From Escherichia phage TrudiRoth, in sequence record MZ501109: a stretch of DNA of 64,000 nt; one strand, 5' to 3'. Of the stretch, positions 6,393-61,045 are shown piece after piece. The position numbers and the translations under genes are program-made. The notes under the pieces are model-generated. The model worked only from the letters and a program-made list of their open reading frames with translations. It had not been told where the DNA came from and did no database searches. Each line of letters starts with the position of its first letter. Position 1 is the stretch's first letter.

Positions 6393-6404
6393 TTGAAATT
6401 TTAC

Positions 6405-6433: not shown

Positions 6434-6459
6434 ATCTCCATTAGTTAAGGAGATTAGTT

Positions 6460-6975: not shown

Positions 6976-6983
6976 GAGAACTA

Positions 6984-9510: not shown

Positions 9511-9558
9511 CATATATTAATTATACTATTATTTGTCATATTCTTTCTAAAACATTTT

Positions 9559-9867
9559 ATGGCCGATTATCCACTCCAAACACCATATATGCTAAAAAAG
9601 ACGCATAAAATAGGGTGGAAACTTCCATTATTAACCCATTCGCTAGTACATGCTGGATTAACATTTGCAATTCTAATCCTATTCACATCACCAGGAATGT
9701 CTATAGCTTTAGCTATTATGGAATTAATTCTACACTTTATTATAGATTATTGGAAAGCACAACGCTGTAAATACGCTATAAGCGATGCTAAGTTTTGGAT
9801 AGCTTTAGGATTTGATCAGTTACTGCATTATCTGACATACGCCCTAATAATCTTGATTATAATCTAA
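9559..9867 (+). CDS. small membrane protein
   Basis: 102 aa with three hydrophobic segments; terminator follows. Confidence 0.5.
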   Translation: MADYPLQTPYMLKKTHKIGWKLPLLTHSLVHAGLTFAILILFTSPGMSIALAIMELILHFIIDYWKAQRCKYAISDAKFWIALGFDQLLHYLTYALIILIII

Positions 9868-9872
9868 TTCAA

Positions 9873-9895
9873 ATAGCCCTTCGGGGCTATTATAT
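9873..9895 (+). terminator. terminator-like hairpin
   Basis: AUAGCCC-UUCG-GGGCUAU followed by AU-rich tract. Confidence 0.5.
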
Positions 9896-9965
9896 TTAAA
9901 TTTCATTTGCTTACTGAGTGAAATTCAAATATAATATACTTCTAATTTGACAGAAGGATTTAATA

Positions 9966-10544
9966 ATGACAGCCATAGTAGCATTTAAATATAAAGATAA
10001 AGTATACTTAGCCGGTGATCGTATGGGTTCTAATGGCTATACGAAACTGCTGGTTAAAAATCCGAAAGTATTCAAAATCTCTGATGATTTGTGCTTCGGA
10101 TACACTAGTTCCTTCTACATGGGACAATTACTAGAGCATAGCTTTACTGTACCACCACGTTTAGCAGATATTTCTGATGATAAATATTTATATACGGAAA
10201 TAGTACCTAAATTACGTGATATGTTTAACCAGAAAGATTTTGGCGAAAAGAAAAATGAAAAATATGCTGAACCTAATCTGGGACAATTTATTATGCTCTA
10301 CAAAGGAAGAATCTTTATTTTCCAATCTAATGCTTCTATTCTAGAAGTTGAATATGCCGGTGTAGGCTGTGGAGGAGAAGATGTACTTTCCAGTATTCGT
10401 ACAGGTTTAGCTATTGCGGATTGTCGAGCCACAGATTTAGATGTAGATGATATATTTGAAATCATTGATCTGGCTTTTACGCATTGTGCAGATTATATGT
10501 GTGGTGTATCTTCTCAACATGATATTTTAGTAATTGGAGAATAA
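9966..10544 (+). CDS. HslV/proteasome-like Ntn-hydrolase family protein (putative)
   Basis: N-terminus MTAIVAFKYKDKVYLAGDRMGSNG resembles HslV TTIV..AGD; AGVGCGG resembles the GSGG loop; RBS present. Confidence 0.5.
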   Translation: MTAIVAFKYKDKVYLAGDRMGSNGYTKLLVKNPKVFKISDDLCFGYTSSFYMGQLLEHSFTVPPRLADISDDKYLYTEIVPKLRDMFNQKDFGEKKNEKYAEPNLGQFIMLYKGRIFIFQSNASILEVEYAGVGCGGEDVLSSIRTGLAIADCRATDLDVDDIFEIIDLAFTHCADYMCGVSSQHDILVIGE

Positions 10545-42570: not shown

Positions 42571-43168
42571 TGCGTGTTAAATTCTGGTCGGATTTGCACT
42601 TAGACCACCCTGGAACTCTTCGCTTCCGTCCGTGGTTTAAGAATATGAAAGAACATGATGAATATATCCTAGATACTTTGTCCAAGCACATTGGCAAGCG
42701 TACTAAGCTCGTCTTGCTAGGGGATATTGCCGTGGGGCGTGAAGGGTTGGCTAAATTAAAGTCGGTTATCCACAATGTGCCTAACCAGTTAATCATGGGC
42801 AACCACGATGCTGAACGTCAGGGTCTGCATATTAAAGATCTTGTAGACGTTTATGATGATATTCAGGCTCTAGGTAAGCAAACAGGTGGTGGCAAGAAGT
42901 TTTGGCTGTCACACTGTCACACTGTCCATTGCACGAAGCAGAACTTCGTGGTAAGCTAAACATTCACGGACATGTGCACACCAATTCTGTGCGCGACCCA
43001 CGTTATATCAACATCTCTTTTGAGATGAGTAAGACTCCTATTCCTCTAGAAGATATTGTATCTGGCAAGTTCACAAGCTATGATAGAGTAGTTAACTGCA
43101 CTACTGGTGAAGTACTCCAAATCGATGAAGATGTGGCAGCAGTATTGAGGGGAGATATCAATGTTTGA
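42570..43168 (+). pseudogene. calcineurin-like metallophosphoesterase interrupted by an 8-bp tandem duplication
   Basis: Frame 1 (42570..42959) carries DLHLD, GDIAVG and GNHD; frame 2 (42902..43168) carries HGHVH; removing one GTCACACT copy at 42908-42923 fuses them into ...FWLSHCPLHEAELRGKLNIHGHVHT... Confidence 0.6.
42908..42923 (+). repeat. 8-bp tandem duplication GTCACACT x2 inside the metallophosphoesterase reading frame
   Basis: GTCACACTGTCACACTGTCC read directly; accounts for the +2 frame change. Confidence 0.85.
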
Positions 43169-47561: not shown

Positions 47562-48167
47562 ATGTTTACACAACAAACCATTAAAGTAGTTGCAGATCAT
47601 GAACTCGACACATGGGATTACAGCTTTAAAGATCTGACTGCTACAGTACAGTTTAAATCTATGCAACTGTCGTTTTTGCACATTGATCTTCAGGCTTGCA
47701 AAGAGTTTCAGGCTAAGCTCATGAATGCTCGTAAGATCTTTGGCACAGCTCGCATCCCGGCTGATAATCTGATTAATGCACTGATCGATGCAGGATACAA
47801 ACTCGTGAAGACTGAAGTGAACCGCCCGAGTACTACAACTATTCCTCGTAATGACCCTTGGCATATTACTGCACTAACTAATTCTGATAAAAGATTAATG
47901 TCGGATATGCACAATGTTCCGTGTGGTGGCGTGGTAAGCAATACGCAATCATATAAATTTGGGGAAACATCTAGCGTAGACGAGTGGAATAAAGCTGGCG
48001 TTGCAATGATGGGCTTTGCAAAAGATCGCGGAGCACAAGAAGACTCCGGAGTTTCTAGGAACTCATATACTATCCGTTTGAGCAATCCTAGAAAAGAGGG
48101 AGAGCTTGAAGAAATGTTAACGAAAGTATTCGAAGCTATTGATGCAGATAAAGCTAGAGGTCGTTAA
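47562..48167 (+). CDS. hypothetical protein
   Basis: 201 aa with RBS. Confidence 0.5.
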   Translation: MFTQQTIKVVADHELDTWDYSFKDLTATVQFKSMQLSFLHIDLQACKEFQAKLMNARKIFGTARIPADNLINALIDAGYKLVKTEVNRPSTTTIPRNDPWHITALTNSDKRLMSDMHNVPCGGVVSNTQSYKFGETSSVDEWNKAGVAMMGFAKDRGAQEDSGVSRNSYTIRLSNPRKEGELEEMLTKVFEAIDADKARGR

Positions 48168-49197: not shown

Positions 49198-49918
49198 TTT
49201 ACGTAGTGAAATTAATAAAAACCTAAGAGAGGAAGCCAGGAGGTTTCCTCTCAAAAACTTTTTAAAGTCAAACGGTTCTACTAATATTACAAAGATTAGG
49301 CAGCTTCATCCAGACTTCCAACAAGAGGCATTAAATCTTATCTTTATTAAGAAAGCATTGAAAGTCCAAAAGGAAGAGTATGGGTATGAAAGAGTTAACT
49401 ATAAAACAGCTACTCAATTAGTAGAGATTTGGTGTTACAAACATCAAGGCTATTTTATGCAAACAGCTAGATCCCATCTAGAAGGGCACGGTTGTTTACA
49501 ATGTGCTAGAGAAAGCAATCTCAATACACCTATCGAGAAACCGGAAATAGATGAGGATGTTCAGTTTCCCACCTATCTCTATATCTTCTCTAATAAGGAT
49601 CAGTCTAGGAAGAAATTAAAGACGAAGATTGGAGTTTCTAGAGAGCCACATCAAAGGTTTAAGAATCTAGAATATGATAAACTGCGTGTGCCGGGTTTCG
49701 AAGATATGGAAGTATTTGGTATATATCAGTATAAGAAAGGATCTAAAGAACTTGCTTATAAAATGGAACATCAAGCACATAAATTTTTCGAGAGCAGATT
49801 TGCTAATCATTATAAATTCGATGGAGCAAAAGAGATATTCAACGTTAAGGCTGTGGAGGCAGAAGAATATTTATTAAGTCAAGGATGCATAAAAATTTAC
49901 CCAACTCCAAACTCATGA
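49190..49918 (+). CDS. zinc-finger plus GIY-YIG/T5orf172-like protein
   Basis: N-terminal Cys/His cluster (HQGYF...HLEGHGCLQCA) and C-terminal TYLYIFSN...KIGVSREPHQR. Confidence 0.5.
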   Translation: MDDLRSEINKNLREEARRFPLKNFLKSNGSTNITKIRQLHPDFQQEALNLIFIKKALKVQKEEYGYERVNYKTATQLVEIWCYKHQGYFMQTARSHLEGHGCLQCARESNLNTPIEKPEIDEDVQFPTYLYIFSNKDQSRKKLKTKIGVSREPHQRFKNLEYDKLRVPGFEDMEVFGIYQYKKGSKELAYKMEHQAHKFFESRFANHYKFDGAKEIFNVKAVEAEEYLLSQGCIKIYPTPNS

Positions 49919-49945
49919 TAAAAATTTAAAAGTAACGAAATCTGC

Positions 49946-49975
49946 TTGACATTCGTGAGAATAATGTGTTATAAT
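49946..49975 (+). promoter_or_regulatory. near-consensus sigma70 promoter with no downstream ORF
   Basis: -35 TTGACA, 18-bp spacer, -10 TATAAT; opens into the repeat region. Confidence 0.55.
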
Positions 49976-50378
49976 AATCTCATAGATTAAAAACATCAAC
50001 TTGTTTTTACCTCTAGGCCGTAGATTTACATCATTCCTCGTAGGAAAACACTTGATGACGGTTCTGCTTGCAGGTTCTCGTCAATTGTTCTTCCTCCCCG
50101 AGACTCAGGAGGATGTATCAAATCGCGCGCGCCTAGAGGGGCTAACTCTCATGAAATGGGGGTATATTAACTTTTAAATAACTAAAAATATTTAAAGGCA
50201 ATATTTATGTTCAAGATGATACACCTGTTGCCGCTCATCTGCTAGGATGGCACAACACTTTCTTCTAGGCTCCTAAGTTTCTAGGAATAGTTAAGCACTA
50301 ACTCTAGAGTTTACACTAAACTTTAAATCTGTTTCTCACACATTCTAGGGCAGTTTCTCTCCAACGTTACATATCCTA

Positions 50379-50418
50379 GGGCGGTTTCCTATACAGGGCG
50401 GTTATAGGGAGGGCGGTT
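50379..50418. repeat. three close copies of GGGCGGTT
   Basis: Copies at 50379, 50396 and 50411, each preceded by TAGG/CAGG. Confidence 0.7.
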
Positions 50419-50462
50419 ATTTCTAGGAGACATTTTTTGAAAACACATTTCTGGAAATTACT

Positions 50463-51062
50463 GTCGGATTTGCACATTACATTTCTAGAAATTTATGGTC
50501 GGATTTGCACATTGATAGGAGTCTCCAAAGTTTTTAGGAACACTGAAAATAGCAGCATTATTTCGGGCCGAAGGCCCATATTTGCCTGAGTTTTTAGAGC
50601 CACAGGAATTTTCACTTGTCAAGCGATTTTGCCCCATTTTGCTAATAAAATTTCGCTTTATCTCCCCTAATCTCAATTCTAGCCAAAACATCCCGCATTA
50701 TCCTCAAAAATGCAGCAAACCGGTGCTAAAGCACCATCACCGCTGCTCCTTCCGTAGTTCCTCCCAAAATCTCATCGGATTCGCACTTCTCCCCAAACTC
50801 ACACAATCACACACCCTCTCATCGAAGTCACAAAAATCTTGTCGGATTTGCACACCTTAACACTTGTCGGATTTGCACATACTCTAGTAAACCCAGCTGG
50901 ATTGCATCGCAGTTGCGGATTGCTGGAGTTTTTAGGAAAATTCATTGTCGGATTTGCACACTATAAAAATTTTTCGGGTAGGATTTGCACATTACCAAAA
51001 ATTGTCGGATTCGCACATACACGCCAGCACGTAACCCATGGAGCAAATGTCGGATTTGCACA
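50463..51062. repeat. about nine dispersed direct copies of a GTCGGATTTGCACA-like 14-mer
   Basis: Exact copies at 50463, 50498, 50841, 50866, 50947 and 51049; variants at 50774 (ATCGGATTCGCAC), 50978 (GTAGGATTTGCACA) and 51004 (GTCGGATTCGCACA). Confidence 0.85.
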
Positions 51063-51090
51063 AAAGCGCAGGGCAATTTGCCCTGCCTGC

Positions 51091-51250
51091 CGAAATGCGA
51101 ATGATAATGAGAATGATTCGCATTTGAGAAGTTGAATGCGAATGAGAACAGTTATCATTTGACTACCGGAATACGAATGAGAATGATTTGCATTTAGGAA
51201 GGGAAACGCTAATAATAATGAGAATGACTCGCATTTACAAAGCGAAGTGA
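51091..51250. repeat. four degenerate tandem units of about 36-42 bp
   Basis: AATGAGAATGA cores at 51106, about 51141 (variant), 51175 and 51217, each followed by (T)CGCATTT. Confidence 0.75.
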
Positions 51251-51268
51251 GAAACACTGTTATTTAAG

Positions 51269-51351
51269 TTATCCACAGGTTTATTAACAGCACGATCTGA
51301 CTTGACAAAATCCTAGTGATTTTGAGGCGTTATCCACAGACTTATCAACAG
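51269..51351 (+). promoter_or_regulatory. two iteron-like 22-bp repeats each containing a consensus DnaA box
   Basis: TTATCCACAGGTTTATTAACAG at 51269 and TTATCCACAGACTTATCAACAG at 51330. Confidence 0.6.
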
Positions 51352-51360
51352 GTTATTCTA

Positions 51361-51378
51361 CTGTATATTTATACAGTA
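51361..51378. repeat. 18-bp near-palindrome CTGTATATTTATACAGTA, copy 1
   Basis: Identical 18-mer recurs at 55075-55092 on the other side of the - strand block. Confidence 0.8.
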
Positions 51379-51494
51379 TTCCTGCGTAGTGAATAACTCT
51401 AATATAGCTCTAAAACGCTCTCAAACGCGTTCTAACGCGTTTATTTTTGGGGGAGGTATTTTAATAAGGGGAAATTTGAGGAAGGCCAGAAAAG

Positions 51495-51518
51495 ACGGGG
51501 CCGATAGTTGCGCCCCGT
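51495..51518 (-). terminator. terminator closing the - strand block
   Basis: Stem ACGGGGC/GCCCCGU; on the - strand it is followed by CUUUUCU, directly downstream of ORF 51524..51718. Confidence 0.6.
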
Positions 51519-51523
51519 TATTA

Positions 51524-51718
51524 TTAGTCTGGTAGTCGATGTGTGATCTTTTCGCTTTCGCCGTAGGAGTCTACCAAATGTTGATAGTAACCATCGTTAT
51601 CATAAATCACTTTATCATAATCGCCACGCTCCACCGCTTGCCGATTTTCCAGCGTATCAGGCACAAAGAAAGTATCAACGGTAACAGTAGTTTTAGTTAC
51701 AACAATTTTATCACTCAT
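51524..51718 (-). CDS. hypothetical protein
   Basis: 64-aa ORF, last gene of the - strand block; terminator hairpin 51495-51518 follows. Confidence 0.4.
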   Translation of the reverse strand: MSDKIVVTKTTVTVDTFFVPDTLENRQAVERGDYDKVIYDNDGYYQHLVDSYGESEKITHRLPD

Positions 51719-51848
51719 AACGCCATTGCTCCTAGAATGAGAATGATTATCAATATCATTGTGAAGCCATTACCAAATCGTAAACGCTGGGAATGTTTCC
51801 CAGCGGTATTATTAGATTTATGGCTTTGTGTTTTTCGCCACCAGCTAT

Positions 51849-52061
51849 TCACGGTTTTAAATTCTCTATAGTTAATTTTGCGCGAATAGTGATTCCATAT
51901 AATTCGCCTCCCTTGTTTCTTACATCAGGTAGCCAGTCCCACAATTCATGGTATCCGCTTAAAATTCCTAGCGATGCAAGATTAGCAATAAAACCGGCTA
52001 TAGTAACCGCTTCCAGTGAAATAGTTACACGATTATTAATAACTAAAGTAAACTTTTTCAT
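51849..52061 (-). CDS. hypothetical protein
   Basis: 70-aa ORF. Confidence 0.4.
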   Translation of the reverse strand: MKKFTLVINNRVTISLEAVTIAGFIANLASLGILSGYHELWDWLPDVRNKGGELYGITIRAKLTIENLKP

Positions 52062-52402
52062 TGCGCCACCTTTCGAAACGCTGTTTCGATACTTTCAGCG
52101 GTTGATTGAATATACGCGCCTTTCATAATTAGACGCTCCGTACATACTTTGCGGAAAATGAAAATGAATTCATTTTCATTTTCCGCTATTAACGCTTCCC
52201 CCATAACCTGAACGTCACAAGACCCAAAAGTTAAAAATTGAAACGCTAGTTCACGGGCGACAACGGCAGAAATTTTATAATGTGCTTTGCCCTCATAGAT
52301 ATTAACCACGCCTTTATAAACAGGGGAAAGCTGATTTAAATAGTTTGCTAATAATGCCGGACGGCAATTAGTTACAAAGCGATTGCCCTCATAAATAACC
52401 AT
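52058..52402 (-). CDS. hypothetical protein
   Basis: 114-aa ORF. Confidence 0.45.
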   Translation of the reverse strand: MVIYEGNRFVTNCRPALLANYLNQLSPVYKGVVNIYEGKAHYKISAVVARELAFQFLTFGSCDVQVMGEALIAENENEFIFIFRKVCTERLIMKGAYIQSTAESIETAFRKVAQ

Positions 52403-52508
52403 TAAATGATCCTCGCATCACGGATAACCATAATCACTAGCGTGATCAACATTGCAGCACTAGACACGCCACAAACAAAAGTTAGCATTTTAACAATTGC
52501 CCCTTCCA

Positions 52509-52721
52509 TTATAACACCCCACGAAAAGCAGCGTAAAAAGTAGCAAAGTGTTTAACCGTTTCGGCTATCAAATTGCCGCGCTTGTCAAATTTCTTTTCTG
52601 TAACACGGAAAGCGTTTTTGTTGCGTGCTACATATTCTATTTTACAATCTGGACGCTCGAAGGTGTTAACATCCACCAGCTTAAAACCTTTAGAACGGGC
52701 AAGGGAAACATTTTTTAACAT
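52509..52721 (-). CDS. hypothetical protein
   Basis: 70-aa ORF. Confidence 0.4.
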   Translation of the reverse strand: MLKNVSLARSKGFKLVDVNTFERPDCKIEYVARNKNAFRVTEKKFDKRGNLIAETVKHFATFYAAFRGVL

Positions 52722-52919
52722 TTTTATTCCCCTTTACCAGTCATACAGCCCAACAAGTAAGAAAACCCCGCGATACCTGCTCCAATAATAACCACGTGAA
52801 CGCCGAAAGCTATTACAAACAGCGATAAAATAGCGCCCAAGATACTAGCCAGAATAGATCGAAAAATAACCATTTTATTAGCTCCTAGAAATTAGGGGAT
52901 AATATATCCCCTTTAATAA

Positions 52920-53147
52920 TTACATTAAAACAATTTTTACCGCTTGCTTTTTGGTGCAGTGGTTAGTTTTCAATTCATCCAACAAAAAGCCCGCCGTTTG
53001 CTGGTCAATCTTGTCATTGTCATAAAGTTCCTGAATGGTAACATAAGTTTTACCTATGCCGAACTCAGAAACCATAACGCTGACAATAGCGGGAACGGAT
53101 ACCCATTCCATACCGTTAAAAATTGCAGAAGATGATGAATGTACCAT
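52920..53147 (-). CDS. hypothetical protein
   Basis: 75-aa ORF. Confidence 0.4.
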   Translation of the reverse strand: MVHSSSSAIFNGMEWVSVPAIVSVMVSEFGIGKTYVTIQELYDNDKIDQQTAGFLLDELKTNHCTKKQAVKIVLM

Positions 53148-53254
53148 TTTAACGCCTCCTAGAAATCAGGGAAAATTTTCAATCCACCGTTTCGGTGTAA
53201 AGGCATTATAACAAAAAAGGCCACCATAATAGGCGACCTTTACAAAACTTTACA

Positions 53255-53776
53255 TTAGACTATTTCTAATGCTTCCACACCGAAACAGCGTTTTAGTTCT
53301 TTCTGTAAAACTGCATATTCATCCCAACGGGAATTATCAGGAATATAAACAAGCTGTTTTAATCGATTTGCATATAATAACGCCTTGTTACCAATTATTT
53401 CCGCGCCACCGTGTTTAATAATTAGTTTCATAACGGTATTAATAGGATCGCCGCCATTTACATAAGTACCGGACTTACTCAATTGATAATGATAAATACT
53501 CGCATATACATTATCATTTTCAATCCATTCCCCTGTTTCTTCATCTTCTTCCCCATCGCTACCGAAACGAGAAGCATTATCATATGCGTGTTCGTTTGCG
53601 AAAGCGTCCAGATCACAGCCAGCGGGAACAAAATGTTCCTCCGTCCAGCCCTCCCCGCAATAGCCAGTATGACAATCAACTAAAACGATCATATCGTGCT
53701 TAGCTTCATTCACACTTTCTAGTGAAAATCCATACTTGCAAACACTATCACGCTCAATAATTAATTTACTAAACAT
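53255..53776 (-). CDS. hypothetical protein
   Basis: 173 aa with central acidic stretch GSDGEEDEETGEW. Confidence 0.5.
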   Translation of the reverse strand: MFSKLIIERDSVCKYGFSLESVNEAKHDMIVLVDCHTGYCGEGWTEEHFVPAGCDLDAFANEHAYDNASRFGSDGEEDEETGEWIENDNVYASIYHYQLSKSGTYVNGGDPINTVMKLIIKHGGAEIIGNKALLYANRLKQLVYIPDNSRWDEYAVLQKELKRCFGVEALEIV

Positions 53777-53804
53777 AATTAGTCTCCTAACTAAAAGGGA
53801 AAGC

Positions 53805-53818
53805 GGGGATTATTCCCC
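53805..53818 (-). terminator. GGGGA-UUAU-UCCCC hairpin, member of a recurring motif
   Basis: Same motif as 57277-57294, in the sense orientation of the local genes, between - strand ORFs. Confidence 0.4.
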
Positions 53819-53829
53819 ACTAGTAATTA

Positions 53830-54825
53830 TTATTCACTTTCGGTGTTAGTGGTAAAGGTAGAAATGTCAATACCTTTTACCATTTCGTCGATCATTTCAG
53901 CAATATTGAAACTCTGTACCATTTCCAACATTGCCGCTTCCATTGCCGCGCCTGCTACCGCTTTCGCTTTCTGATTAGTCGGGGCGTACTGGTCAACTGC
54001 TACGCTTAACAGGTTAGCGATCACTATACGACCAATCGGCGTATCGATATAACCTTTAATCATAAACGGCGCTTTTTTCGCCGCTACTTTCGTGATTTGA
54101 GTTAATGCAATTTTACCCGCTTCCAGTTTTGCAGCATTTACAACAGCGGATTTATTAGCAGCAACGATAGAAGATACTTTAGTCATGATATTTCCTTTAT
54201 TTTCAGTAGTTTGCGCATTTGCGCTTGAAGTTTGAGAGTTTACAGCCTGTTTTGCTACGTTGTCAACTGGTTTTAGTGTAAATCCAGCGTTTGCAACGTT
54301 TGATTCATTCCCATACTCTAAATAATCGTTAGGGATCAACATGTTACCGCTAGCGCGTTCAAAACACAATACGCCAGTTGTTTCGATTGCGTCACTATCC
54401 GCACGTTTAATGGCGCTTGTCAATTCGCCCCAAATGCTAGACAGTAAATCTTCTACATCTCTGGAATTAATACCATTTACGCGAGTAGCGAAAACCATTT
54501 CTTTTTCTTGTACATTGTAACCACGGGCAATATAGCTTTTTTCGTCGTGACCTACAATGATAAAATCAATATCGCTTCCCCGCTGATTTCGTATGATGTG
54601 ATAGTCACGGTTGTAAAGCACTAGAACGCGGCTAGGGTCTAGTAATAGCGTGAAATCATCGACTGAATAATGAGTATCATTATTATCTAAAATATCATCG
54701 TGAATCTTTTCAACCATTGCCACCGTATGTTGTAGGCTTGCTGGACTTGATCCGTCTAGCAGGTTGCGCAAAATACCCTTAATAATAGTGGCGTTTGCTG
54801 GTACTGCAATTCTTACAGTAGACAT
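53830..54825 (-). CDS. hypothetical protein
   Basis: 331 aa, first and largest gene of the - strand block; Ala/Val/Asn-rich central region. Confidence 0.55.
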   Translation of the reverse strand: MSTVRIAVPANATIIKGILRNLLDGSSPASLQHTVAMVEKIHDDILDNNDTHYSVDDFTLLLDPSRVLVLYNRDYHIIRNQRGSDIDFIIVGHDEKSYIARGYNVQEKEMVFATRVNGINSRDVEDLLSSIWGELTSAIKRADSDAIETTGVLCFERASGNMLIPNDYLEYGNESNVANAGFTLKPVDNVAKQAVNSQTSSANAQTTENKGNIMTKVSSIVAANKSAVVNAAKLEAGKIALTQITKVAAKKAPFMIKGYIDTPIGRIVIANLLSVAVDQYAPTNQKAKAVAGAAMEAAMLEMVQSFNIAEMIDEMVKGIDISTFTTNTESE

Positions 54826-55074
54826 TTCTTTGTCTCCCTCGTTAATCGGTGAGTGAATGATATAGATAATTGTTCGCTATGGGCAAGAAAAAAGAAAAGG
54901 TTTTTTATTCCTTGCCTAACGCTTGTTTTTATGATACCCGCGTGTTTTCTATTTCTAGCTCTCTGTAAGCGTACACAAGGCTTTATTATAATAAGGGTAG
55001 CAGTGAGAAAACGCCGTGTAGCGTGTTCTAGACCTCTTAAATTTGATTGCGGTTGTTACTGCTACCATTCTACC

Positions 55075-55092
55075 CTGTATATTTATACAGTA
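55075..55092. repeat. 18-bp near-palindrome CTGTATATTTATACAGTA, copy 2
   Basis: Identical to 51361-51378. Confidence 0.8.
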
Positions 55093-55112
55093 GGATAACC
55101 TGTATATAAGTC

Positions 55113-55170
55113 TGTGGATAAGTCGCCAAATCGTCGCCTATTACGTCAAGTTATTTTGTGCTGTGGATAA
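55113..55170 (-). promoter_or_regulatory. two consensus DnaA boxes in inverted orientation
   Basis: TGTGGATAA at 55113-55121 and 55162-55170; an 8/9 box AGTGGATAA at 55447-55455. Confidence 0.6.
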
Positions 55171-55831
55171 CTTTGGGGATAAGTTAAATGATAGTGGTTC
55201 TCACTTAGCCCGATAGTTTCTCATAGTTATTATTTCTCTTTAATTTATAAGTATATTATATAATATGAAATAGTTAGTTGGCTAATAGGTTTTTAGAGTA
55301 TTAATAGTCTGCTAATAATAACGCATGTTACAATCCACCAGCGTGATTATCATCCTAGCGACTATTAGCGTGCTAATGACCTGATACACGTCCAGACTTA
55401 TTTGTCAATGAAAAATAATAGCAGAAAATACTTTTTTGAAAAATCAAGTGGATAACTCATTAAATTTCATTTTTGCTTTTTGTATAAGTTATTAACAGGG
55501 TCTAAAACGCTCTGTAACGCATTCTAAGCGCCTCAAAGGAAAAGATAGGCAATCATAAGGAGTACACCGAGAAAACCTCACCACTAGCGAAATAAGTTTT
55601 GTCAAGTACCCCAAAGCAGATATAAATGAAAAAATTACTTGCTAAAATGGTTGTTTTGATGTTATTCGCGCGCCCGTTTCATTTAATTTTAGGCAGTCGC
55701 TGGACGTGGTGCGGTGGCGTTTGTCCTTACGTTTCTTTACAAAAATAAGGTTGCGCCCTTCTCGGTATTCTCCTATTATTTATCACGTAGGGCGGCAATG
55801 ACGAACTACACGGCGGAGAAGTTTACCACCG

Positions 55832-55870
55832 CGCTCTTTAAAAACTAGGGAACATCTTAAAGCCTATCGG
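55832..55870. repeat. left arm of a ~40-bp inverted repeat
   Basis: CGCTCTTTAAAAACTAGGGAACATCTTAAAGCCTATCGG; its reverse complement occurs at 56277-56315 with one mismatch. Confidence 0.85.
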
Positions 55871-55903
55871 CGGTAAACTTATATAATATAAGGAATCGAC
55901 GAT

Positions 55904-56062
55904 ATGACAACAATATTTAACGATCATCCAGCTACCCACGACACGATCGAAAAAATCGAACAATGGGTAAAGACTGCAAATGAATACTATGCTAATCATT
56001 CGGAAGCGGTAATAATCTGCAATGATGGGAATGGTTTATATGCTTTGGAGGATCTCAAATGA
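55904..56062 (+). CDS. small hypothetical protein
   Basis: 52-aa ORF translated by hand; RBS AAGGAA; stop overlaps the next start (ATGA). Confidence 0.35.
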   Translation: MTTIFNDHPATHDTIEKIEQWVKTANEYYANHSEAVIICNDGNGLYALEDLK

Positions 56063-56268
56063 AACAAACGCTTTTGATCACTGGCAAGCCTATCAAGTCA
56101 CTTGATAGCAGAACAAAAAATTTGTTGATAGTAGCGCAAAAATCGGTAAAATACCGATTCAAGCAGTACAAGAAAGGAAGGCAGCAAGGTCTGGAAATGG
56201 TGTGGCGTAATATAATGATTGATTTATATAACTCCCATCAAATCGAAAAAAGTTTAAAAAACGCTTGA
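56059..56268 (+). CDS. small basic protein
   Basis: 69-aa ORF coupled to the previous one; the pair is flanked by a ~40-bp inverted repeat. Confidence 0.4.
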   Translation: MKQTLLITGKPIKSLDSRTKNLLIVAQKSVKYRFKQYKKGRQQGLEMVWRNIMIDLYNSHQIEKSLKNA

Positions 56269-56276
56269 TACGCTAG

Positions 56277-56315
56277 CCGATAGGTTTTAAGATGTTCCCT
56301 AGTTTTTAAAGAGCG
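56277..56315. repeat. right arm of a ~40-bp inverted repeat
   Basis: CCGATAGGTTTTAAGATGTTCCCTAGTTTTTAAAGAGCG. Confidence 0.85.
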
Positions 56316-56499
56316 ATAACTTGATAAAATTTGACGGTCGGCACTTACCATAATGTGCCCCGCCCCCTAACTGGGATATAGCGGCCCGCGTGGAGTTCTT
56401 TAAATTTATTATACTGGCGAGCGGATTATAATCTAATAGCGTTTCAACGTATCGAGGCGCTATTGTGGAATAATCCCCCAATAAACCGGAGTATTAAAA

Positions 56500-56751
56500 A
56501 TGCAAAACGTTATTACCGCGCCGAAAGTAGGTCAATCTGTTTTCATTCCTTTTGTAACTAAAACGGATGAATTAACCGGAAAAGCCGAACGTATTAAAGG
56601 TGTGGCGCTTGATCCTTTCGATAAAATCGAAGCGGTATACGCGGAAACGGAACGGAGTAACAACGGCAAGCCAATTTATAACGTTCGCGTTAAATCCGGC
56701 GACGTTGTAAAGATCATTCAGAAAGATGATAAATGGCAAGCTATTAGCTAA
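56500..56751 (+). CDS. hypothetical protein
   Basis: 83-aa ORF with RBS; hairpin follows. Confidence 0.45.
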   Translation: MQNVITAPKVGQSVFIPFVTKTDELTGKAERIKGVALDPFDKIEAVYAETERSNNGKPIYNVRVKSGDVVKIIQKDDKWQAIS

Positions 56752-56850
56752 TTAGTGCTAACTTTATATTCCCCTGAAATATGGGGAATATATGGATTAA
56801 CATTAGTTAATCATAATCCCTTAATTAATAATTGAATGGAGTATTAAATT

Positions 56851-57267
56851 ATGTCTAACGTTAAAACCGAAAAAGCCGCAAAATTCGCATGGAATGAAGA
56901 AAACACTGAAAAAGCCGTTTCTATGTATTCTGAAATGGTCGCTAAAAGCGGAATTGAATTTGCTAACACTGACGGCTTAAAAGAAATCGCCGCCGCCGTT
57001 GGCGCGGCTTCTCCCGTGTCTGTTCGCTCAAAATTGACCAGCGCAAAAGCCTACCAGAAAAGCGATAAACCTCGCAAAGTTGGCGGTGGTAGCTCAATCC
57101 GTAAAGCTCACTATGTGCGCGTCATTGCTAAACATGCCATTGATAGCGGCATTGTAAAAGACGCCGACGATCTGGCAAGTCTGGAAAGCGCAAAATTGGA
57201 AACGCTGGACGCCGTAGCGCAATTGTTAGGCGTAGCGGAGGAAGTAAAACAGGCCGCAGGCGAATAA
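56851..57267 (+). CDS. pre-early protein, possible A2-like
   Basis: 138 aa immediately upstream of the A1-like gene; assignment is positional only. Confidence 0.4.
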   Translation: MSNVKTEKAAKFAWNEENTEKAVSMYSEMVAKSGIEFANTDGLKEIAAAVGAASPVSVRSKLTSAKAYQKSDKPRKVGGGSSIRKAHYVRVIAKHAIDSGIVKDADDLASLESAKLETLDAVAQLLGVAEEVKQAAGE

Positions 57268-57276
57268 ATTTAATCA

Positions 57277-57294
57277 GTGGGGAATAATCCCCAC
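57277..57294 (+). terminator. GUGGGGA-AUAA-UCCCCAC hairpin, member of a recurring motif
   Basis: 7-bp perfect stem 10 nt after the stop of ORF 56851..57267; related hairpin at 56768-56786. Confidence 0.45.
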
Positions 57295-57316
57295 TATCCC
57301 TTAAAGGAGAATAATT

Positions 57317-57541
57317 TTGATCTTTTATCCTAGCGAAGCGTTTATTTTGGGCTTATTTATAGTTGCCGCCGCTTTTATTCTGAATTATACGCGGTCAATT
57401 CTGGCAATAATCGGAATTAATAACGTTTACGCCGCAAATAATTTCCGCAAAAACGCGAATATTCAAAAATATATGTCAATCATCTTTCTTACAATTGGCA
57501 TTGTATTTGGCTTTTGTTCTAGTTTAACGCCGATTAATTAA
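57317..57541 (+). CDS. small membrane protein
   Basis: 74 aa with two hydrophobic segments. Confidence 0.35.
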   Translation: MIFYPSEAFILGLFIVAAAFILNYTRSILAIIGINNVYAANNFRKNANIQKYMSIIFLTIGIVFGFCSSLTPIN

Positions 57542-57653
57542 ATGTTGCAAATTATAACGCCTTTAAAAGTCCTCACTTCAGGCAAGGCGTTATATTTGGC
57601 AATATTGCCAGCTTTAAAATGTTTTAAATCCCTTTAATGGAGTTACTTAACTT

Positions 57654-59318
57654 ATGAATATTTCCGCAGAAAAACAGTCTCAGATCAATAAACTTGCCGC
57701 CGACTTTAATTTCTACGGTAAGCGTTTACGCGCTACCAAACTTGAAGTTTGCGACGATATTTCAAAAGCTGTATATGATACGCCGAAACATTCAACGGCA
57801 ATTTGTGACTGGTTGGAAGCAAATAAGCCAGCGAAACCGAAGGCAGCGAAAGCTGTAAAAGCCATTAAAAACGATGATCGCCCCGAAGCGGCGGGGATCG
57901 TTTCTAGCACGGTTGAGCAATGGGAAGTTAAATCCGGTCGCCGTTTTATTCTAACGTCGATTCAAAATAATACTTTCCCGCACAAAAACTTTTTGAAAGC
58001 GCTTGAGCAATACGCTAGTTATTATGGCGCTGAATTGCTTGTTAGCAAATTCATTTACAACAAAAACGGATTTCAGAATGGGGAAGGCGGCGAAAAAATC
58101 AAATATGATCCCGCATTTGATAAATATATTTGTGAGAAAAACGTATTTTTAAATAATCGCCGCTTTGCTTTCATGGCTGAAATTAACGTATTACCAACGG
58201 CAGATTATCCGCTTTCAGGATTCGCAGAAACTGCCACCGCTTTAAATATTGAAGGTCTGGCAATTGGTCACGCAAAAATTACCGCTGAAAGTGTGCCAGC
58301 GTTAAAAGGTGAAGTAGTGCGCCGTATGTACTCCACCGGAACGGCTACGCTTAAAAACTACATTCAGCAGAAAGCAGGTCAAAAAGCTGAGGCGCTGCAT
58401 AATTACGGCGCTTTGCTGGTAGAATTTGACGACGACGGCGAATTTTTTGTTCGCCAGCTTGAGACAATGGATGAAAGCGGGATGTTTTATGATTTGAATA
58501 TTTGCGCTATACCAACCGGATGTTTCAAAACATCTGATCATGTTTTAGGTTTGCAATATGGCGATATTCACGCCGAAAAATTAGATGATGATTGCGCTGT
58601 TGCATCATGGGTGGGCGAAAATAGCTTGCTTGATATTCTTAAACCAAAATATCAGTTTATCCATGATGTGCATGATTTTACATCGCGTAACCATCATAAT
58701 CGCGCCTCTGGTGTATTCCTAGCTAAACAGTACGCCGCCGGACGTGATAAAGTTATTGATGATCTTATCGATACTGGACGTGTATTAGAATCAATGGAGC
58801 GCGATTTTTCTCAAACAATCATCGTGGAATCCAATCATGATTTGGCGTTATCCCGTTGGCTTGACGATCGCAACGCTAATATTAAAGACGATCCCGCAAA
58901 CGCCGAACTGTATCACAGCCTAAACGCCGCTATTTATGCAGCTATTGCAAAACAAGATGATACCTTTAACGTATTGGATTACGCGCTTAGAAACGTTGCA
59001 GGTTGCGAATTTAACGCTATTTTTCTGACTACTGACCAATCTTTCAAGATTGCAGGAATTGAATGCGGCGTACACGGTCACAATGGCATTAACGGCAGTC
59101 GGGGCAATCCTAAGCAGTTTAAGAAACTTGGACGCCTCAACACTGGCCATACTCACACGGCGAGCATTTACGGTGGCGTGTATACCGCTGGCGTTGCTGG
59201 TAGTCTCGATATGGGTTACAACGTGGGCGCGTCAAGCTGGACGCAAACGCATTTAATTACCTATGCAAACGGGCAACGTACTTTGATTGATTTCAAAAAC
59301 GGTAAATTCTTTGCATAG
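57654..59318 (+). CDS. A1: A1-like pre-early protein (metallophosphoesterase fold)
   Basis: 554 aa with GDIH, SNHD and GHTH phosphoesterase motifs; size and position next to dmp match T5 A1 as I recall it. Confidence 0.7.
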   Translation: MNISAEKQSQINKLAADFNFYGKRLRATKLEVCDDISKAVYDTPKHSTAICDWLEANKPAKPKAAKAVKAIKNDDRPEAAGIVSSTVEQWEVKSGRRFILTSIQNNTFPHKNFLKALEQYASYYGAELLVSKFIYNKNGFQNGEGGEKIKYDPAFDKYICEKNVFLNNRRFAFMAEINVLPTADYPLSGFAETATALNIEGLAIGHAKITAESVPALKGEVVRRMYSTGTATLKNYIQQKAGQKAEALHNYGALLVEFDDDGEFFVRQLETMDESGMFYDLNICAIPTGCFKTSDHVLGLQYGDIHAEKLDDDCAVASWVGENSLLDILKPKYQFIHDVHDFTSRNHHNRASGVFLAKQYAAGRDKVIDDLIDTGRVLESMERDFSQTIIVESNHDLALSRWLDDRNANIKDDPANAELYHSLNAAIYAAIAKQDDTFNVLDYALRNVAGCEFNAIFLTTDQSFKIAGIECGVHGHNGINGSRGNPKQFKKLGRLNTGHTHTASIYGGVYTAGVAGSLDMGYNVGASSWTQTHLITYANGQRTLIDFKNGKFFA

Positions 59319-59370
59319 TTAAATTTAATCGGCGGTTGAAATATACCGCCATTAATAAAAGGTTTATTAA

Positions 59371-59628
59371 ATGAATATTGTATTACCTAAAACGCTGGAT
59401 AAAAAGCAGTATATAACGCCGGATGATATGGAGTGCGGCAAGGTATACCAATTCGATTATATGTTGGCTAGTCCGACAAATACAGGTTGTATTATTGCAG
59501 TTGATACCCGCGATAATGACGTATTAACGTTTAATGATTATTCTGACTTTATGGAATGGTTAGATGATCAAAGTATCACTAATAATGGCGAATTAACGCC
59601 CTATCAATTAACGCTCACAATTAAATAG
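59371..59628 (+). CDS. hypothetical protein
   Basis: 85-aa ORF. Confidence 0.4.
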   Translation: MNIVLPKTLDKKQYITPDDMECGKVYQFDYMLASPTNTGCIIAVDTRDNDVLTFNDYSDFMEWLDDQSITNNGELTPYQLTLTIK

Positions 59629-59666
59629 TTTAATCCCGTAAATATAAATAATCAGGAGTTATAAAC

Positions 59667-60059
59667 ATGAAACAACAAAATATTCCTTTTGACGCTGCAA
59701 AATCTTCCATCGTTCTAGTTTATTCTAATGGTGAACGTTATCACGTCGAGGCGGGGCAAGTTAATTTTGATTTGCTGAATTATAACGACGCTTTGCAGGT
59801 TACTACCTTTGCTTATGATACCGGCAAAGTGGCAAGCCATACGAAAGCAAAAGGCGTTTACGCTGATACTTTGACAGTGCAAACAATTATTATTGATGCG
59901 CTTAAATCCGGTCTAGCGTTTGCAGTTGTTAAGCCGTGTCCGGTCTGCAATCCAGAAGCTAGCGCGATGGTTTACATTTGCGCGGGAATCCGTTCTAGTG
60001 TATCCGGTGAAGATCTTAGCTTTATTGGTGACGCGCTAGCGTACGGCCTCACTAATTAA
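59667..60059 (+). CDS. hypothetical protein
   Basis: 130-aa ORF. Confidence 0.45.
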   Translation: MKQQNIPFDAAKSSIVLVYSNGERYHVEAGQVNFDLLNYNDALQVTTFAYDTGKVASHTKAKGVYADTLTVQTIIIDALKSGLAFAVVKPCPVCNPEASAMVYICAGIRSSVSGEDLSFIGDALAYGLTN

Positions 60060-60147
60060 TAGTTAATTGAACATTGCCAGCTAATCTAATATAATTAGCT
60101 GGCAAGATTGAATTAACCCTAAACCCCTTAAATGGAGAATGTAGCAA

Positions 60148-60882
60148 ATGAATCAAGTTAATATGAATATTACCCGCGCTTTCCCGCATATTTCCCGCGT
60201 TATGATTTGGGATTTAGACGGGACAATCATTAATTCAATGCACCGTGTAGCGCCTTGTTTTGATGATAACGGAAATTTAAATTTAAATAAGTATTCCCGC
60301 GAAGCCTGCAAACATGATTTAATTATGCAGGATTCTTTATTGCCGTTGGTTGAATATATGCGCCAATGTATGAATGATGCAAATACTTTAAATATTATTT
60401 GTACCGCGCGCCTTATGTCTAAAAGCGATTACTTTTATTTGCGTAAACAAGGCTTGCGAGGGCGCGGAAATAGCAATATCCGCGTATTCTCCCGCGATAC
60501 ATTACACAAATACTTTGAAGCGGATAAGGTTAGCGAAATATACCACAGCAAAGACGCTGTATACAAAAGCTATTACTTTGAACTATTTAAACAGCTATAT
60601 CCGAACGCTGATTTTACGATGATTGATGATCATAAAGGCGTATTATCGGCGGCGGCAAGTGCTGGATTTAAAACGTTGGATGCTCAAGCCGTTAACGATA
60701 TCCTATCAATCGGCGTAACATTGATCGGTGAAACCTTTATTGATGAATCGCTTGATGATGATAACGATTATCAATTCCTAGCCGAACGTTTAAAAATGTG
60801 TTGGGAAGGTATGACCGAGGAAGAACGCGCGGAATATAGTACCACTCCGCAACAATTCATTGATAAATTAAAAGTTGCCTAA
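60148..60882 (+). CDS. dmp: 5'-deoxynucleotidase (HAD family)
   Basis: HAD motif I WDLDGTI; 244 aa; terminator follows. Confidence 0.7.
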   Translation: MNQVNMNITRAFPHISRVMIWDLDGTIINSMHRVAPCFDDNGNLNLNKYSREACKHDLIMQDSLLPLVEYMRQCMNDANTLNIICTARLMSKSDYFYLRKQGLRGRGNSNIRVFSRDTLHKYFEADKVSEIYHSKDAVYKSYYFELFKQLYPNADFTMIDDHKGVLSAAASAGFKTLDAQAVNDILSIGVTLIGETFIDESLDDDNDYQFLAERLKMCWEGMTEEERAEYSTTPQQFIDKLKVA

Positions 60883-60897
60883 CAATTAAAAATAAAA

Positions 60898-60935
60898 TAG
60901 TCACACTGTGTAATGATAACATGGTGTGACTATTA
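60898..60935 (+). terminator. terminator-like hairpin after dmp
   Basis: 9-bp stem UAGUCACAC/GUGUGACUA followed by UUAGCUU. Confidence 0.55.
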
Positions 60936-61045
60936 GCTTGCTAAGTACCGGGGCGGTAATGAGACTCATTCTCATCTAGGGAACCTCTGGGCACACCTTC
61001 ATGTGTAATCTTATGAGATTTCGAGAATTGGTAATTAGCGCTAAC

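What the first reader, a model, noticed from the sequence alone, without database searches (positions are those of the whole stretch)
50379..51250. Non-coding repeat landscape between the early and pre-early regions
About 1.5 kb after the last early gene has no credible ORF but is densely patterned: three GGGCGGTT copies, about nine copies of a GTCGGATTTGCACA-like 14-mer, and four tandem ~40-bp AATGAGAATGA...CGCATTT units, followed by DnaA-box iterons. In T5 a repeat- and DnaA-box-rich stretch at the inner end of the terminal repeat is associated with the pause between first- and second-step DNA transfer. The 14-mer spacing suggests an array of protein-binding sites.
Basis: partly seen in the sequence, partly recalled or inferred. 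Interest (0 to 1): 0.55.

Follow-up and report, generated by a model that had tools for sequence, protein, structure and literature searches.

The report
T5-type injection-stop repeat region
This non-coding stretch is this phage's copy of the repeat-rich "injection stop signal" region already described in phage T5; it is a known feature whose mechanism is unsolved, and it also carries near-perfect binding-site look-alikes for the host proteins LexA and Fur that I could not find reported.

Summary
The window is a T5-like phage (96% identical to vB_Eco_mar003J3), read in reverse of the usual T5 orientation. Region 50379-51250, with its flanks to about 51400, matches element for element the T5 region annotated "injection stop signal (iss)", which Davison calls Repeat Region 3. 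The 14-mer copies even have the same spacing as in T5.

By homology I also placed:
- the inner end of the terminal repeat (about 50597), so the GGGCGGTT copies and two 14-mers lie outside the repeat;
- the major 7.9% nick (51065^51066);
- the inverted partner of the DnaA-box module (55073-55182).

Two readings were not found in the literature I could search. The palindrome beside the DnaA boxes is a 19/20 match to the LexA SOS box, and this persists in Proteus and Vibrio relatives. The four tandem units score like footprinted E. coli Fur operators, each as paired sites 6 bp apart. How the region works remains inferred.

The parts
50348..50418 (+). GGGCRGTT repeats: GGGCAGTT at 50348 and GGGCGGTT at 50379, 50396 and 50411, set among CTAG-containing short repeats. 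By homology they lie outside the terminal repeat.
   Evidence: Relatives including Sugarland carry 2-3 copies. Mean identity to 10 relatives is 0.88, against 0.74-0.75 for spacers. CTAG is about 5 times enriched in 50200-50560.
50445..50513 (+). Two tandem 35-bp units, each ending in a perfect 14-mer GTCGGATTTGCACA (copies 1 and 2 of T5's 'DRD' repeat).
   Evidence: The same pair with the same 35-bp spacing is present in T5 and all relatives.
50566..50611 (.). GGGCC-GAA-GGCCC hairpin (50566-50578) and the predicted inner end of the terminal repeat at 50596|50597, which is also the sequence of the right physical end of the packaged genome.
   Evidence: The T5 LTR end at 10219 lies 99 nt after the start of DRD copy 2. 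EscoHU1 and Shivani have the same offset, and Stitch is at 94 nt. The 30 bp around the boundary are 97% identical across 10 relatives. Other records place the end 20-570 bp away.
50774..51062 (+). Array of seven more 14-mer copies at 50774 (degenerate), 50841, 50866, 50947, 50978, 51004 and 51049, all in one orientation.
   Evidence: The spacings 25, 81, 31, 26 and 45 match T5 (25, 81, 31, 26, 46). Across 97 copies from 11 phages the conserved block is exactly 14 bp. Mean identity is 0.93 against 0.75 for the spacers between copies. A Vibrio relative keeps TCGnATTyGCAC copies.
51063..51086 (+). Predicted major (7.9%) single-strand nick, A^GCGCAGGGC between 51065 and 51066, followed by an 8-bp-stem hairpin at 51068-51086.
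   Evidence: The T5 nick at 9748/9749 has the same sequence. The T5 nicks at 18.5% and 32.6% share A^GCGCAGGG. The motif is 98% conserved. Hairpin. The nick itself cannot be observed from sequence.
51092..51253 (.). Four tandem 35-41 bp palindromic units built of GCGAAT/GATAAT/GAGAAT hexamers and their complements (T5's DRE/DRB/DRC repeats). Each holds two Fur-operator-like 19-mers offset by 6 bp.
   Evidence: Fur matrix scores are 8.7-16.6 bits at 51103/09, 51138/44, 51173/79 and 51214/20, against 7.9-19.8 bits for genuine operators left out of the matrix. None of 1000 local shuffles reaches the observed count. Relatives score up to 20.9 bits.
51245..51268 (+). GAAGTGAGAAACACTGTTATTTAAG, a near-invariant block directly before the first DnaA box.
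   Evidence: 98% identity across 10 relatives. It is recognisable in Sugarland and in Proteus phage 1.
51269..51350 (+). Two DnaA-box pairs (consensus box, 3 bp, variant box), 61 bp start to start. This is T5's IRD'-spacer-IRC'.
   Evidence: T5 has the same 61-bp start-to-start distance. Described by Davison 2020.
51359..51378 (.). TACTGTATATTTATACAGTA, a 19/20 match to the LexA SOS-box consensus TACTGTATATATATACAGTA.
   Evidence: CTGT-N8-ACAG occurs only twice in the 64-kb window, here and in the inverted partner. The match is 19/20 in all 10 relatives. Proteus and Vibrio relatives keep CTGT/ACAG with a variable AT-rich centre, next to DnaA boxes.
51423..51442 (+). Terminator-like hairpin AAACGCGTTCTAACGCGTTT followed by a T run, between the repeat region and the last pre-early gene.
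   Evidence: T5 annotates a terminator at the homologous place, 9275-9296.
55073..55182 (-). Inverted partner of the DnaA/SOS-box module (T5's Repeat Region 2, IRC-spacer-IRD): an SOS-like box at 55073-55092 and DnaA-type boxes at 55100, 55113, 55162 and 55174.
   Evidence: arms 51321-51376 and 55075-55130, 56 nt, 84% complementary.. Davison 2020 describes this partner.
60955..60993 (+). Outer (left) end of the terminal repeat at 60993|60994, with the palindrome GGTAATGAGACTCATTCTC about 35 bp inside it.
   Evidence: The junction was mapped by comparing T5's left end with its right unique/RTR junction. The palindrome scores 17.8 bits on the Fur matrix. Vibrio phage BBMuffin has a 17/19-identical element just beyond dmp.

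Best explanation
This is the window's copy of the conserved non-coding region that straddles the inner end of the long terminal repeat in T5-like phages. [quoted passage not shown]

It most likely acts as DNA, as a dense set of protein-binding sites. Phage DNA enters the cell from the far end of the repeat (window about 60993 downward). The sites therefore reach the cell in this order:
- SOS-like box
- two DnaA-box pairs
- four palindromic units
- nick site
- 14-mer array
- end of the repeat

The calculated end of the first-step DNA falls in the palindromic units, next to the nick. The stop needs no phage protein synthesis. My preferred mechanism is therefore that host proteins already in the cell load onto the first-entering part of the region and hold the DNA at the envelope until the pre-early proteins A1 and A2 release it. 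DnaA is the published candidate. Sequence here also points to LexA and Fur.

The same region also carries two other cis functions: the major 7.9% nick and the site where the right genome end (the repeat boundary) is made.

What is shown: the homology, the anatomy and the conservation. What is inferred: all protein binding, the stop function in this particular phage, and which element does what.
For: - Megablast finds 519 T5-like records. The best is 96.1% identical, and several annotate the match as left terminal repeat.
- T5 annotates iss at 9140-10149, the LTR as 1-10219, and the nick at 9748/9749.
- The motif order and the 14-mer spacings are the same as in T5.
- Davison 2020 describes the same elements in 25 phages and notes that the stop is independent of the FhuA receptor.
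- Named elements are 0.88-0.98 identical across 10 relatives, against 0.74-0.75 for spacers.
- The inverted partner lies 3.7 kb inside the repeat.
- The SOS-like box plus DnaA boxes persist in Proteus and Vibrio relatives whose A1 protein is only 33-43% identical.
- Fur-like paired sites occur in every unit and are conserved in T5, DT57C and Sugarland.
- Papers from 2026 still describe the stop mechanism as poorly understood.
Against: - As far as the papers I read show, the iss was placed from the size of the sheared first-step DNA and from the annotation, not by mutation.
- Davison notes that ejection into FhuA proteoliposomes is complete, so the DNA alone does not stop transfer.
- It is physically unclear how soluble proteins bound to DNA that is already inside could block further entry.
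- No binding, injection or nick data exist for this phage.
- The repeat boundary is annotated at different places in different relatives.
Confidence: 0.85

Rival explanations
1. The 14-mer array and the sequence around 50597 serve mainly in making genome ends. On this view they are recognition sites for the phage terminase (or an end-forming nickase), which cuts the concatemer at the repeat boundary, rather than injection-stop elements.
For: - By homology the right physical end of the genome falls between 14-mer copies 2 and 3, and the 30 bp around it are 97% conserved.
- In Vibrio phage BBMuffin the record starts 30 bp before its 14-mer-like array.
- Long direct terminal repeats are thought to arise from staggered nicks at fixed sites (PhageTerm paper).
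- From my own knowledge, repeated small-terminase sites flanking a cut site are known from lambda cosB and SPP1 pac.
Against: - No 14-mer copy lies near the other repeat end at 60993.
- The T5 scan finds the copies confined to this region, apart from one inside a gene.
- No terminase-site data for T5 turned up.
- This role is compatible with the best explanation, so it may be an added function rather than a replacement.
Confidence: 0.3
2. The region is an iteron-type replication origin or a DnaA-titrating locus. The direct 14-mer repeats would act as initiator-binding iterons beside the DnaA boxes.
For: There are direct repeats in one orientation next to four DnaA-type boxes. Davison notes the resemblance to oriC.
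Against: - Davison cites electron-microscopy mapping of T5 origins near the centre of the genome, and the replication genes arrive only with the second step.
- T5's annotated origin-binding protein gene lies at 59.5-62.3 kb.
- No Rep-like gene is adjacent.
- The Vibrio variants of the 14-mer lose their resemblance to a DnaA box.
Confidence: 0.06
3. The region works as RNA. The consensus promoter at 49946-49975 drives a long non-coding transcript through the repeats, and the repeats are RNA elements.
For: There is a 12/12 sigma-70 promoter with an extended -10 facing into the region. The first 190 nt downstream fold unusually well, with z = -5.6.
Against: - The well-folding segment ends at about 50175, before the repeats.
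- Rfam gives nothing above chance across 49800-51700.
- The conserved elements are palindromes and oriented short motifs typical of DNA sites.
- The inverted partner at 55 kb lies in another transcription unit.
Confidence: 0.05
4. The patterns are low-complexity or chance features of AT-rich intergenic DNA with no function.
For: Consensus DnaA boxes alone are not enriched in the window.
Against: - No shuffle reaches the observed motif counts.
- GC content of the repeat equals the rest of the window (39.7% against 39.4%).
- The architecture is conserved across genera and, in part, across subfamilies.
Confidence: 0.01

Closest known systems
Bacteriophage T5 injection stop signal region (iss; Repeat Region 3 of Davison; Heusterspreute et al. 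1987)
   Same: It has the same position between the pre-early and early genes at the inner end of the left terminal repeat. It has the same elements in the same order: GGGCGGTT copies, nine 14-mers with identical spacing, the nick motif, palindromic tandem units, two DnaA-box pairs, a palindrome and an inverted partner in the repeat.
   Different: This phage has four tandem units, where T5 has about six and DT57C about ten. It has three GGGCGGTT copies where T5 has two. The segment just after the flanking promoter (49983-50175) is not homologous to T5.
E. coli Fur operator clusters (for example fhuA, ryhB, iucA; Chen et al. 2007)
   Same: The 19-bp sites score within the range of footprinted operators and come in overlapping pairs exactly 6 bp apart, the hallmark described for genuine Fur clusters. 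Units of relatives match the fhuA operator core ATAATCATTCTCGTTT at 15 of 16 positions.
   Different: They do not overlap a recognisable strong promoter. They are arranged as tandem 35-41 bp repeats. Binding has not been tested. The Vibrio relative BBMuffin lacks them in this region.
LexA SOS boxes of Gammaproteobacteria (CTGT-N8-ACAG)
   Same: The match to the 20-bp consensus is 19/20. Across distant relatives CTGT and ACAG stay invariant while the AT-rich centre varies, which is the pattern expected for LexA recognition.
   Different: It is not placed over a promoter and no gene lies downstream in either direction. It is always paired with DnaA boxes and duplicated as an inverted repeat.
Phage T7 genome entry (first part enters, the rest needs transcription)
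   Same: A virulent phage delivers a leading part of its genome, pauses, and completes entry only after events inside the cell. This comparison rests on my own knowledge.
   Different: T7's pause is relieved by RNA polymerase pulling the DNA in, and no repeat-rich stop region is involved. [quoted passage not shown]
Terminase recognition regions (lambda cosB, SPP1 pac)
   Same: Repeated short motifs flank the place where the genome end is made. This comparison rests on my own knowledge, together.
   Different: No terminase binding data exist for T5-like phages. The other genome end has no 14-mers.

Membership tests
T5-type injection stop signal region (Repeat Region 3) | Non-coding stretch of about 1.2 kb between the pre-early genes and the early genes, straddling the inner end of the left terminal repeat | tested here: met
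   The gene-free stretch is 49919-51523. Early-type genes lie on one side and pre-early genes (A1, A2-side, dmp) on the other. By homology the boundary is at about 50597.
T5-type injection stop signal region (Repeat Region 3) | About nine direct DRD repeats | tested here: met
   There are eight copies with at most 1 mismatch plus one degenerate copy. The spacing is identical to T5.
T5-type injection stop signal region (Repeat Region 3) | IRD'-spacer-IRC' with two DnaA-box pairs, each pair separated by 3 bp | tested here: met
   The pairs are at 51269/51281 and 51330/51342, with the same 61-bp start-to-start distance as T5.
T5-type injection stop signal region (Repeat Region 3) | Inverted copy of that module a few kb further inside the repeat (Repeat Region 2) | tested here: met
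   Arms 51321-51376 and 55075-55130 are 56 nt long and 84% complementary. The boxes are visible.
T5-type injection stop signal region (Repeat Region 3) | Major single-strand nick at about 7.9% of the genome | not testable with these tools
   The sequence A^GCGCAGGGC is identical to the annotated T5 site. The nick itself needs packaged DNA.
T5-type injection stop signal region (Repeat Region 3) | DNA transfer actually pauses here | not testable with these tools
   This needs infection experiments. Even for T5 the position rests on the size of the sheared first-step DNA.
Fur operator cluster | Overlapping 19-bp sites 6 bp apart that score like footprinted operators | tested here: met
   The matrix was built from 14 E. 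coli operators. Units score 8.7-16.6 bits, and genuine sites left out of the matrix score 7.9-19.8 bits.
Fur operator cluster | Overlap with a promoter that Fur represses | tested here: not met
   Only weak 9/12 promoter-like matches occur in the unit array.
Fur operator cluster | Fur protein binds | not testable with these tools
   This needs a gel shift or footprint.
LexA SOS box | CTGT-N8-ACAG palindrome with an AT-rich centre close to the 20-bp consensus | tested here: met
   The match is 19/20 at 51359-51378 and 17/20 at 55073-55092. These are the only two CTGT-N8-ACAG in the window.
LexA SOS box | Operator position at the promoter of a regulated gene | tested here: not met
   No promoter-like site overlaps the box and no gene follows it.
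Iteron-type replication origin | Iterons with an adjacent initiator gene and origin activity | tested here: not met
   No Rep-like gene is adjacent. The T5 origins cited lie near the genome centre. Origin activity itself is not testable here.
Terminase recognition site | Lies at the position where a genome end is made | tested here: inconclusive
   The T5-type boundary maps inside the region and is 97% conserved. Relatives are annotated inconsistently, and no end data exist for this phage.

The most novel reading that the evidence does not exclude
The T5-family injection stop region may be a landing pad for three resident host regulators rather than DnaA alone. It carries a canonical LexA SOS box, duplicated as an inverted repeat and always beside the DnaA boxes, kept from E. 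coli phages to Proteus and Vibrio phages. In the enterobacterial phages it also carries tandem Fur double sites, exactly where the first-step DNA ends. If these proteins bind and help hold or release the DNA, two-step injection would be coupled to the host's SOS and iron status. It would also suggest why A1-driven host DNA breakdown accompanies release: SOS induction removes LexA.
Probability: 0.25. Interest if true: 0.8.

Novelty: already known. Interest (0 to 1): 0.45.

Why it matters
How T5 stops DNA entry after 8% of its genome has been an open question since the 1960s, and 2026 papers still call the mechanism poorly understood. This window adds no new kind of element.

The comparison does narrow the problem. 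It separates the region into modules with different depths of conservation:
- The SOS-like box with DnaA boxes, and the last 14-mer with the nick motif, are kept in all or some of the distant Proteus and Vibrio relatives examined.
- The Fur-like units are strong only in the phages of enterobacteria, weaker in the Proteus phage, and absent from this region in the Vibrio phage BBMuffin.

It also names two further host proteins that can be tested with existing E. coli mutants.

There is a practical point too. In two deposited genomes the software-predicted terminal-repeat end coincides with the nick rather than with the T5-type end.

Tried and rejected
- **14-mer as a weak DnaA box.** ATTTGCACA matches TTWTNCACA at 8 of 9 positions. 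I rejected this because the conserved block is 14 bp with equally conserved TCGGA, and the Vibrio version ATCGGATTCGCACC loses the resemblance.
- **14-mer as the nick determinant.** The last copy always precedes GCGCAGG, even in Vibrio and Proteus phages. However, the T5 nicks at 18.5% and 32.6% have no 14-mer.
- **Known RNA families.** Only sub-threshold chance hits appeared, for example PrrF at 24.8 bits against a cut-off of 90.
- **Helical phasing of the 14-mers.** Spacings of 35, 25, 81, 31, 26 and 45 are not multiples of a helical turn.
- **Other host-factor consensus sequences.** By eye, CRP, IHF, Fis, PhoB and marbox consensus sequences did not fit the 14-mer.
- **Composition bias as the cause of the Fur-like hits.** The repeat has the same GC content as the rest of the window.
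- **Extra 14-mer copies at 42587 and 47900.** Both lie inside genes. The copy at 42587 reads W-S-D-L-H-L in a phosphoesterase-type motif.
- **Literature.** Davison's 2015 review could not be read. Searches for T5 with LexA, SOS box or Fur box found nothing relevant.

Full report
**Observation.** The sequence between the last + strand gene (stop at 49918) and the first - strand gene (51524-51718) has no ORF longer than 98 aa, and the longest start with TTG or GTG.
- GGGCGGTT is at 50379, 50396 and 50411. The window holds 4 copies against 0.72 expected, and 0 of 100 shuffles reach that.
- GTCGGATTTGCACA has eight copies with at most one mismatch, plus a degenerate ninth at 50774. All are on the + strand. 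With two mismatches allowed there are 12 hits in the window against 0.40 expected.
- Four tandem units lie at 51092-51253, spaced 35, 35 and 41 bp.
- Two DnaA-box pairs lie at 51269/51281 and 51330/51342.

Consensus DnaA boxes are not enriched in the window as a whole (9 against 7.4 expected). Their paired arrangement and conservation carry the signal.

**Identity.** Megablast of 49900-51500 finds 519 phage records, all T5-like. The best is 96.1% identical (Escherichia phage vB_Eco_mar003J3), and several records annotate the match as left terminal repeat. The window + strand is the reverse complement of the usual T5 orientation.

The T5 reference record annotates the homologous 9140-10149 as 'injection stop signal (iss)'. 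It gives the left terminal repeat as 1-10219 and a 'major DNA single-chain interruption' at 9748/9749. Read in the window's orientation, T5 shows the same motifs in the same order. The 14-mer spacings are 35, 344, 25, 81, 31, 26 and 46 in T5, against 35, 343, 25, 81, 31, 26 and 45 here.

Davison's 2020 preprint names this stretch Repeat Region 3. He describes nine DRD repeats, DRE repeats and the IRD'-spacer-IRC' module with paired DnaA boxes, with an inverted copy in Repeat Region 2, conserved in 25 T5-like phages. He proposes that membrane-bound DnaA holds the DNA there. The window has that inverted copy: 51321-51376 pairs with 55075-55130 over 56 nt at 84% complementarity.

**Landmarks placed by homology.**
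- *Inner repeat end.* In T5 this lies 99 nt after the start of 14-mer copy 2. EscoHU1 and Shivani have the same offset, and Stitch is at 94 nt. That puts the boundary at window 50596|50597, and the 30 bp around it are 97% identical across ten relatives. The three GGGCGGTT copies and the first two 14-mers therefore lie in unique DNA, as Davison notes for T5.
- *Outer repeat end.* Comparing T5's left end with its right unique/RTR junction maps this to 60993|60994. The window therefore comes from an assembly with a single repeat copy of about 10.4 kb.
- *Nick.* The T5 nick context is A^GCGCAGGGC, shared by the two other annotated major nicks. The window has the identical sequence with the nick predicted between 51065 and 51066, followed by an 8-bp-stem hairpin.
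- *A software artefact in relatives.* The PhageTerm-predicted repeat ends of Seafire and Sugarland fall within 1 nt of this nick position, not at the T5-type end.

**Conservation.** Across ten relatives, including Klebsiella phage Sugarland (about 69% identical here), mean identity to the window varies by element:

| Element | Mean identity |
|---|---|
| Nick motif | 0.98 |
| Block GAAGTGAGAAACACTGTTATTTAAG | 0.98 |
| Palindrome next to the DnaA boxes | 0.97 |
| 14-mers | 0.93 |
| DnaA pairs | 0.91 |
| GGGCGGTT copies | 0.88 |
| Spacers | 0.74-0.75 |
| Tandem units | 0.72 |

Across 97 copies from 11 phages, the information in the 14-mer has sharp edges at exactly 14 bp.

**Distant relatives.** I searched with the A1 protein.
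- Proteus phage 1 (43% A1 identity) has, at the equivalent non-coding place, tandem 46-bp repeats, then DnaA boxes 63 bp apart, then TACTGTATATAATTACAGGG. A second such box lies 3.5 kb further in.
- Vibrio phage BBMuffin (33% A1 identity) has five ATCGnATTyGCACC copies plus an exact GTCGGATTTGCAC followed by GCGCAGG. It then has two DnaA boxes and two CTGT-N8-ACAG palindromes.
- Vibrio phage D308 likewise pairs DnaA boxes with such palindromes.

The modules seen again in at least some of these distant phages are the palindrome with DnaA boxes (all three) and the last 14-mer with the nick motif (BBMuffin, and a degenerate form in Proteus phage 1).

**Two readings not found in the accessible literature.**

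*SOS box.* The palindrome TACTGTATATTTATACAGTA (51359-51378) matches the LexA SOS-box consensus at 19 of 20 positions. CTGT-N8-ACAG occurs only twice in the 64-kb window, here and in the inverted partner. In distant relatives CTGT and ACAG are invariant while the AT-rich centre varies, which is the pattern LexA recognition predicts.

*Fur-like units.* The tandem units are built of GCGAAT/GATAAT/GAGAAT hexamers and their complements.
- I built a 19-bp matrix from 14 footprinted or gel-shifted E. coli Fur operators. Coordinates came from Chen et al. 2007, and sequences were fetched from MG1655.
- Genuine sites left out of the matrix score 7.9-19.8 bits, median 14.2.
- Each of the four units holds two sites 6 bp apart scoring 8.7-16.6 bits. 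Chen et al. describe that spacing as typical of real Fur clusters.
- Of 13 sites at or above 12 bits in the window, 12 lie in the terminal repeat. Shuffles of the repeat give 0.45 on average, with a maximum of 3 in 300. The repeat is no more AT-rich than the rest of the window.
- T5 (up to 19.3 bits), DT57C (20.9) and Sugarland (18.8) show the same. In 63.5 kb of T5, 6 of 8 such sites are in the repeat.
- Units of relatives match the fhuA operator core at 15 of 16 positions.

Davison 2020 does not mention LexA, SOS or Fur, and library searches found nothing. The 1987 and 2005 primary papers could not be read. Neither kind of site overlaps a credible promoter, so neither meets the full definition of an operator.

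**Mechanism.** DNA enters from the 60993 end. The SOS-like box, DnaA pairs and units therefore enter last within the first-step DNA. The calculated first-step end (Davison's coordinate 9618, 521 bp inside the repeat end) maps to about 51118, in the first unit beside the nick.

The stop needs no phage protein synthesis and does not depend on the receptor. I therefore favour resident host proteins loading onto this part of the DNA and holding it until A1 and A2 act. This is inference.

Three points count against it. The iss was not located by mutation in the sources I read. Ejection in vitro is complete. And it is unclear how proteins bound to DNA already inside the cell would block further entry.

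The 14-mers flank the predicted genome end, so a role in end formation is a serious alternative or additional function. They are not DnaA boxes in disguise and not nick determinants. An origin function is unlikely.

**Verdict.** The feature is already known from T5 and its relatives. The SOS-box and Fur-operator resemblances are new leads that can be tested with existing host mutants. They justify a moderate rather than a low interest score.

Noticed in passing
window 49946-50175 (+): A 12/12 consensus sigma-70 promoter with an extended -10 sits at 49946-49975. The 190-nt segment after it folds far better than shuffles (-66.8 against -44.5 kcal/mol, z = -5.6). EscoHU1 keeps the outer helices but has a different inner domain. 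There is no Rfam match. This is a candidate small RNA.
   Followed up: partly
L003 (Seafire) 4057; L005 (Sugarland) 1857; window equivalent 51065/51066: The PhageTerm-predicted terminal-repeat ends in these two deposited genomes fall within 1 nt of the conserved A^GCGCAGG nick site. They do not fall at the T5-type repeat end about 470 bp away. The nick probably misleads end-calling software.
   Followed up: partly
window 36524/36525 and about 19096/19097 (+ strand): These are homologs of the T5 major nicks at 18.5% (GGAGA^GCGCAGGGGG) and 32.6% (here GAGA^GCGCGGGC). GCGCAGG occurs on the + strand only at 36525 and 51066.
   Followed up: partly
window 51733-51757: The strongest Fur-matrix site in the window (GAGAATGATTATCAATATC, 21.1 bits, with neighbours 6 bp either side) lies among the small pre-early ORFs, about 350 bp beyond the SOS-like box. 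It is conserved at 19-21 bits in EscoHU1, Seafire, Shivani, Stitch and chee130_1.
   Followed up: partly
window 60955-60973; L024 (Vibrio phage BBMuffin) 8476-8494: The palindrome GGTAATGAGACTCATTCTC lies about 35 bp inside the left genome end. It is 17/19 identical to an element at the same place (just beyond dmp) in a Vibrio relative whose A1 protein is only 33% identical. T5 has only a degenerate version.
   Followed up: partly
window 42587-42600 and 47900-47913: One-mismatch copies of the 14-mer lie inside genes, on the same strand as the array. The first encodes W-S-D-L-H-L. The second lies in the T5.019 homolog and is an exact copy in T5 and EscoHU1. They may be coding coincidence or extra sites.
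   Followed up: partly
window 50597-60993: The window contains one complete terminal-repeat copy of about 10.4 kb, with early genes on one side and the right-end unique genes on the other. The source assembly therefore has a single, collapsed or permuted repeat.
   Followed up: yes
window 55832-55871 and 56276-56315: A 40-nt inverted repeat, 98% complementary, has arms 404 nt apart inside the pre-early region. This may correspond to T5's Repeat Region 1.
   Followed up: no
L007 (Shivani) 1362-1901: An HNH homing endonuclease gene is inserted into the middle of the 14-mer array of Salmonella phage Shivani, so the array tolerates being split.
   Followed up: no
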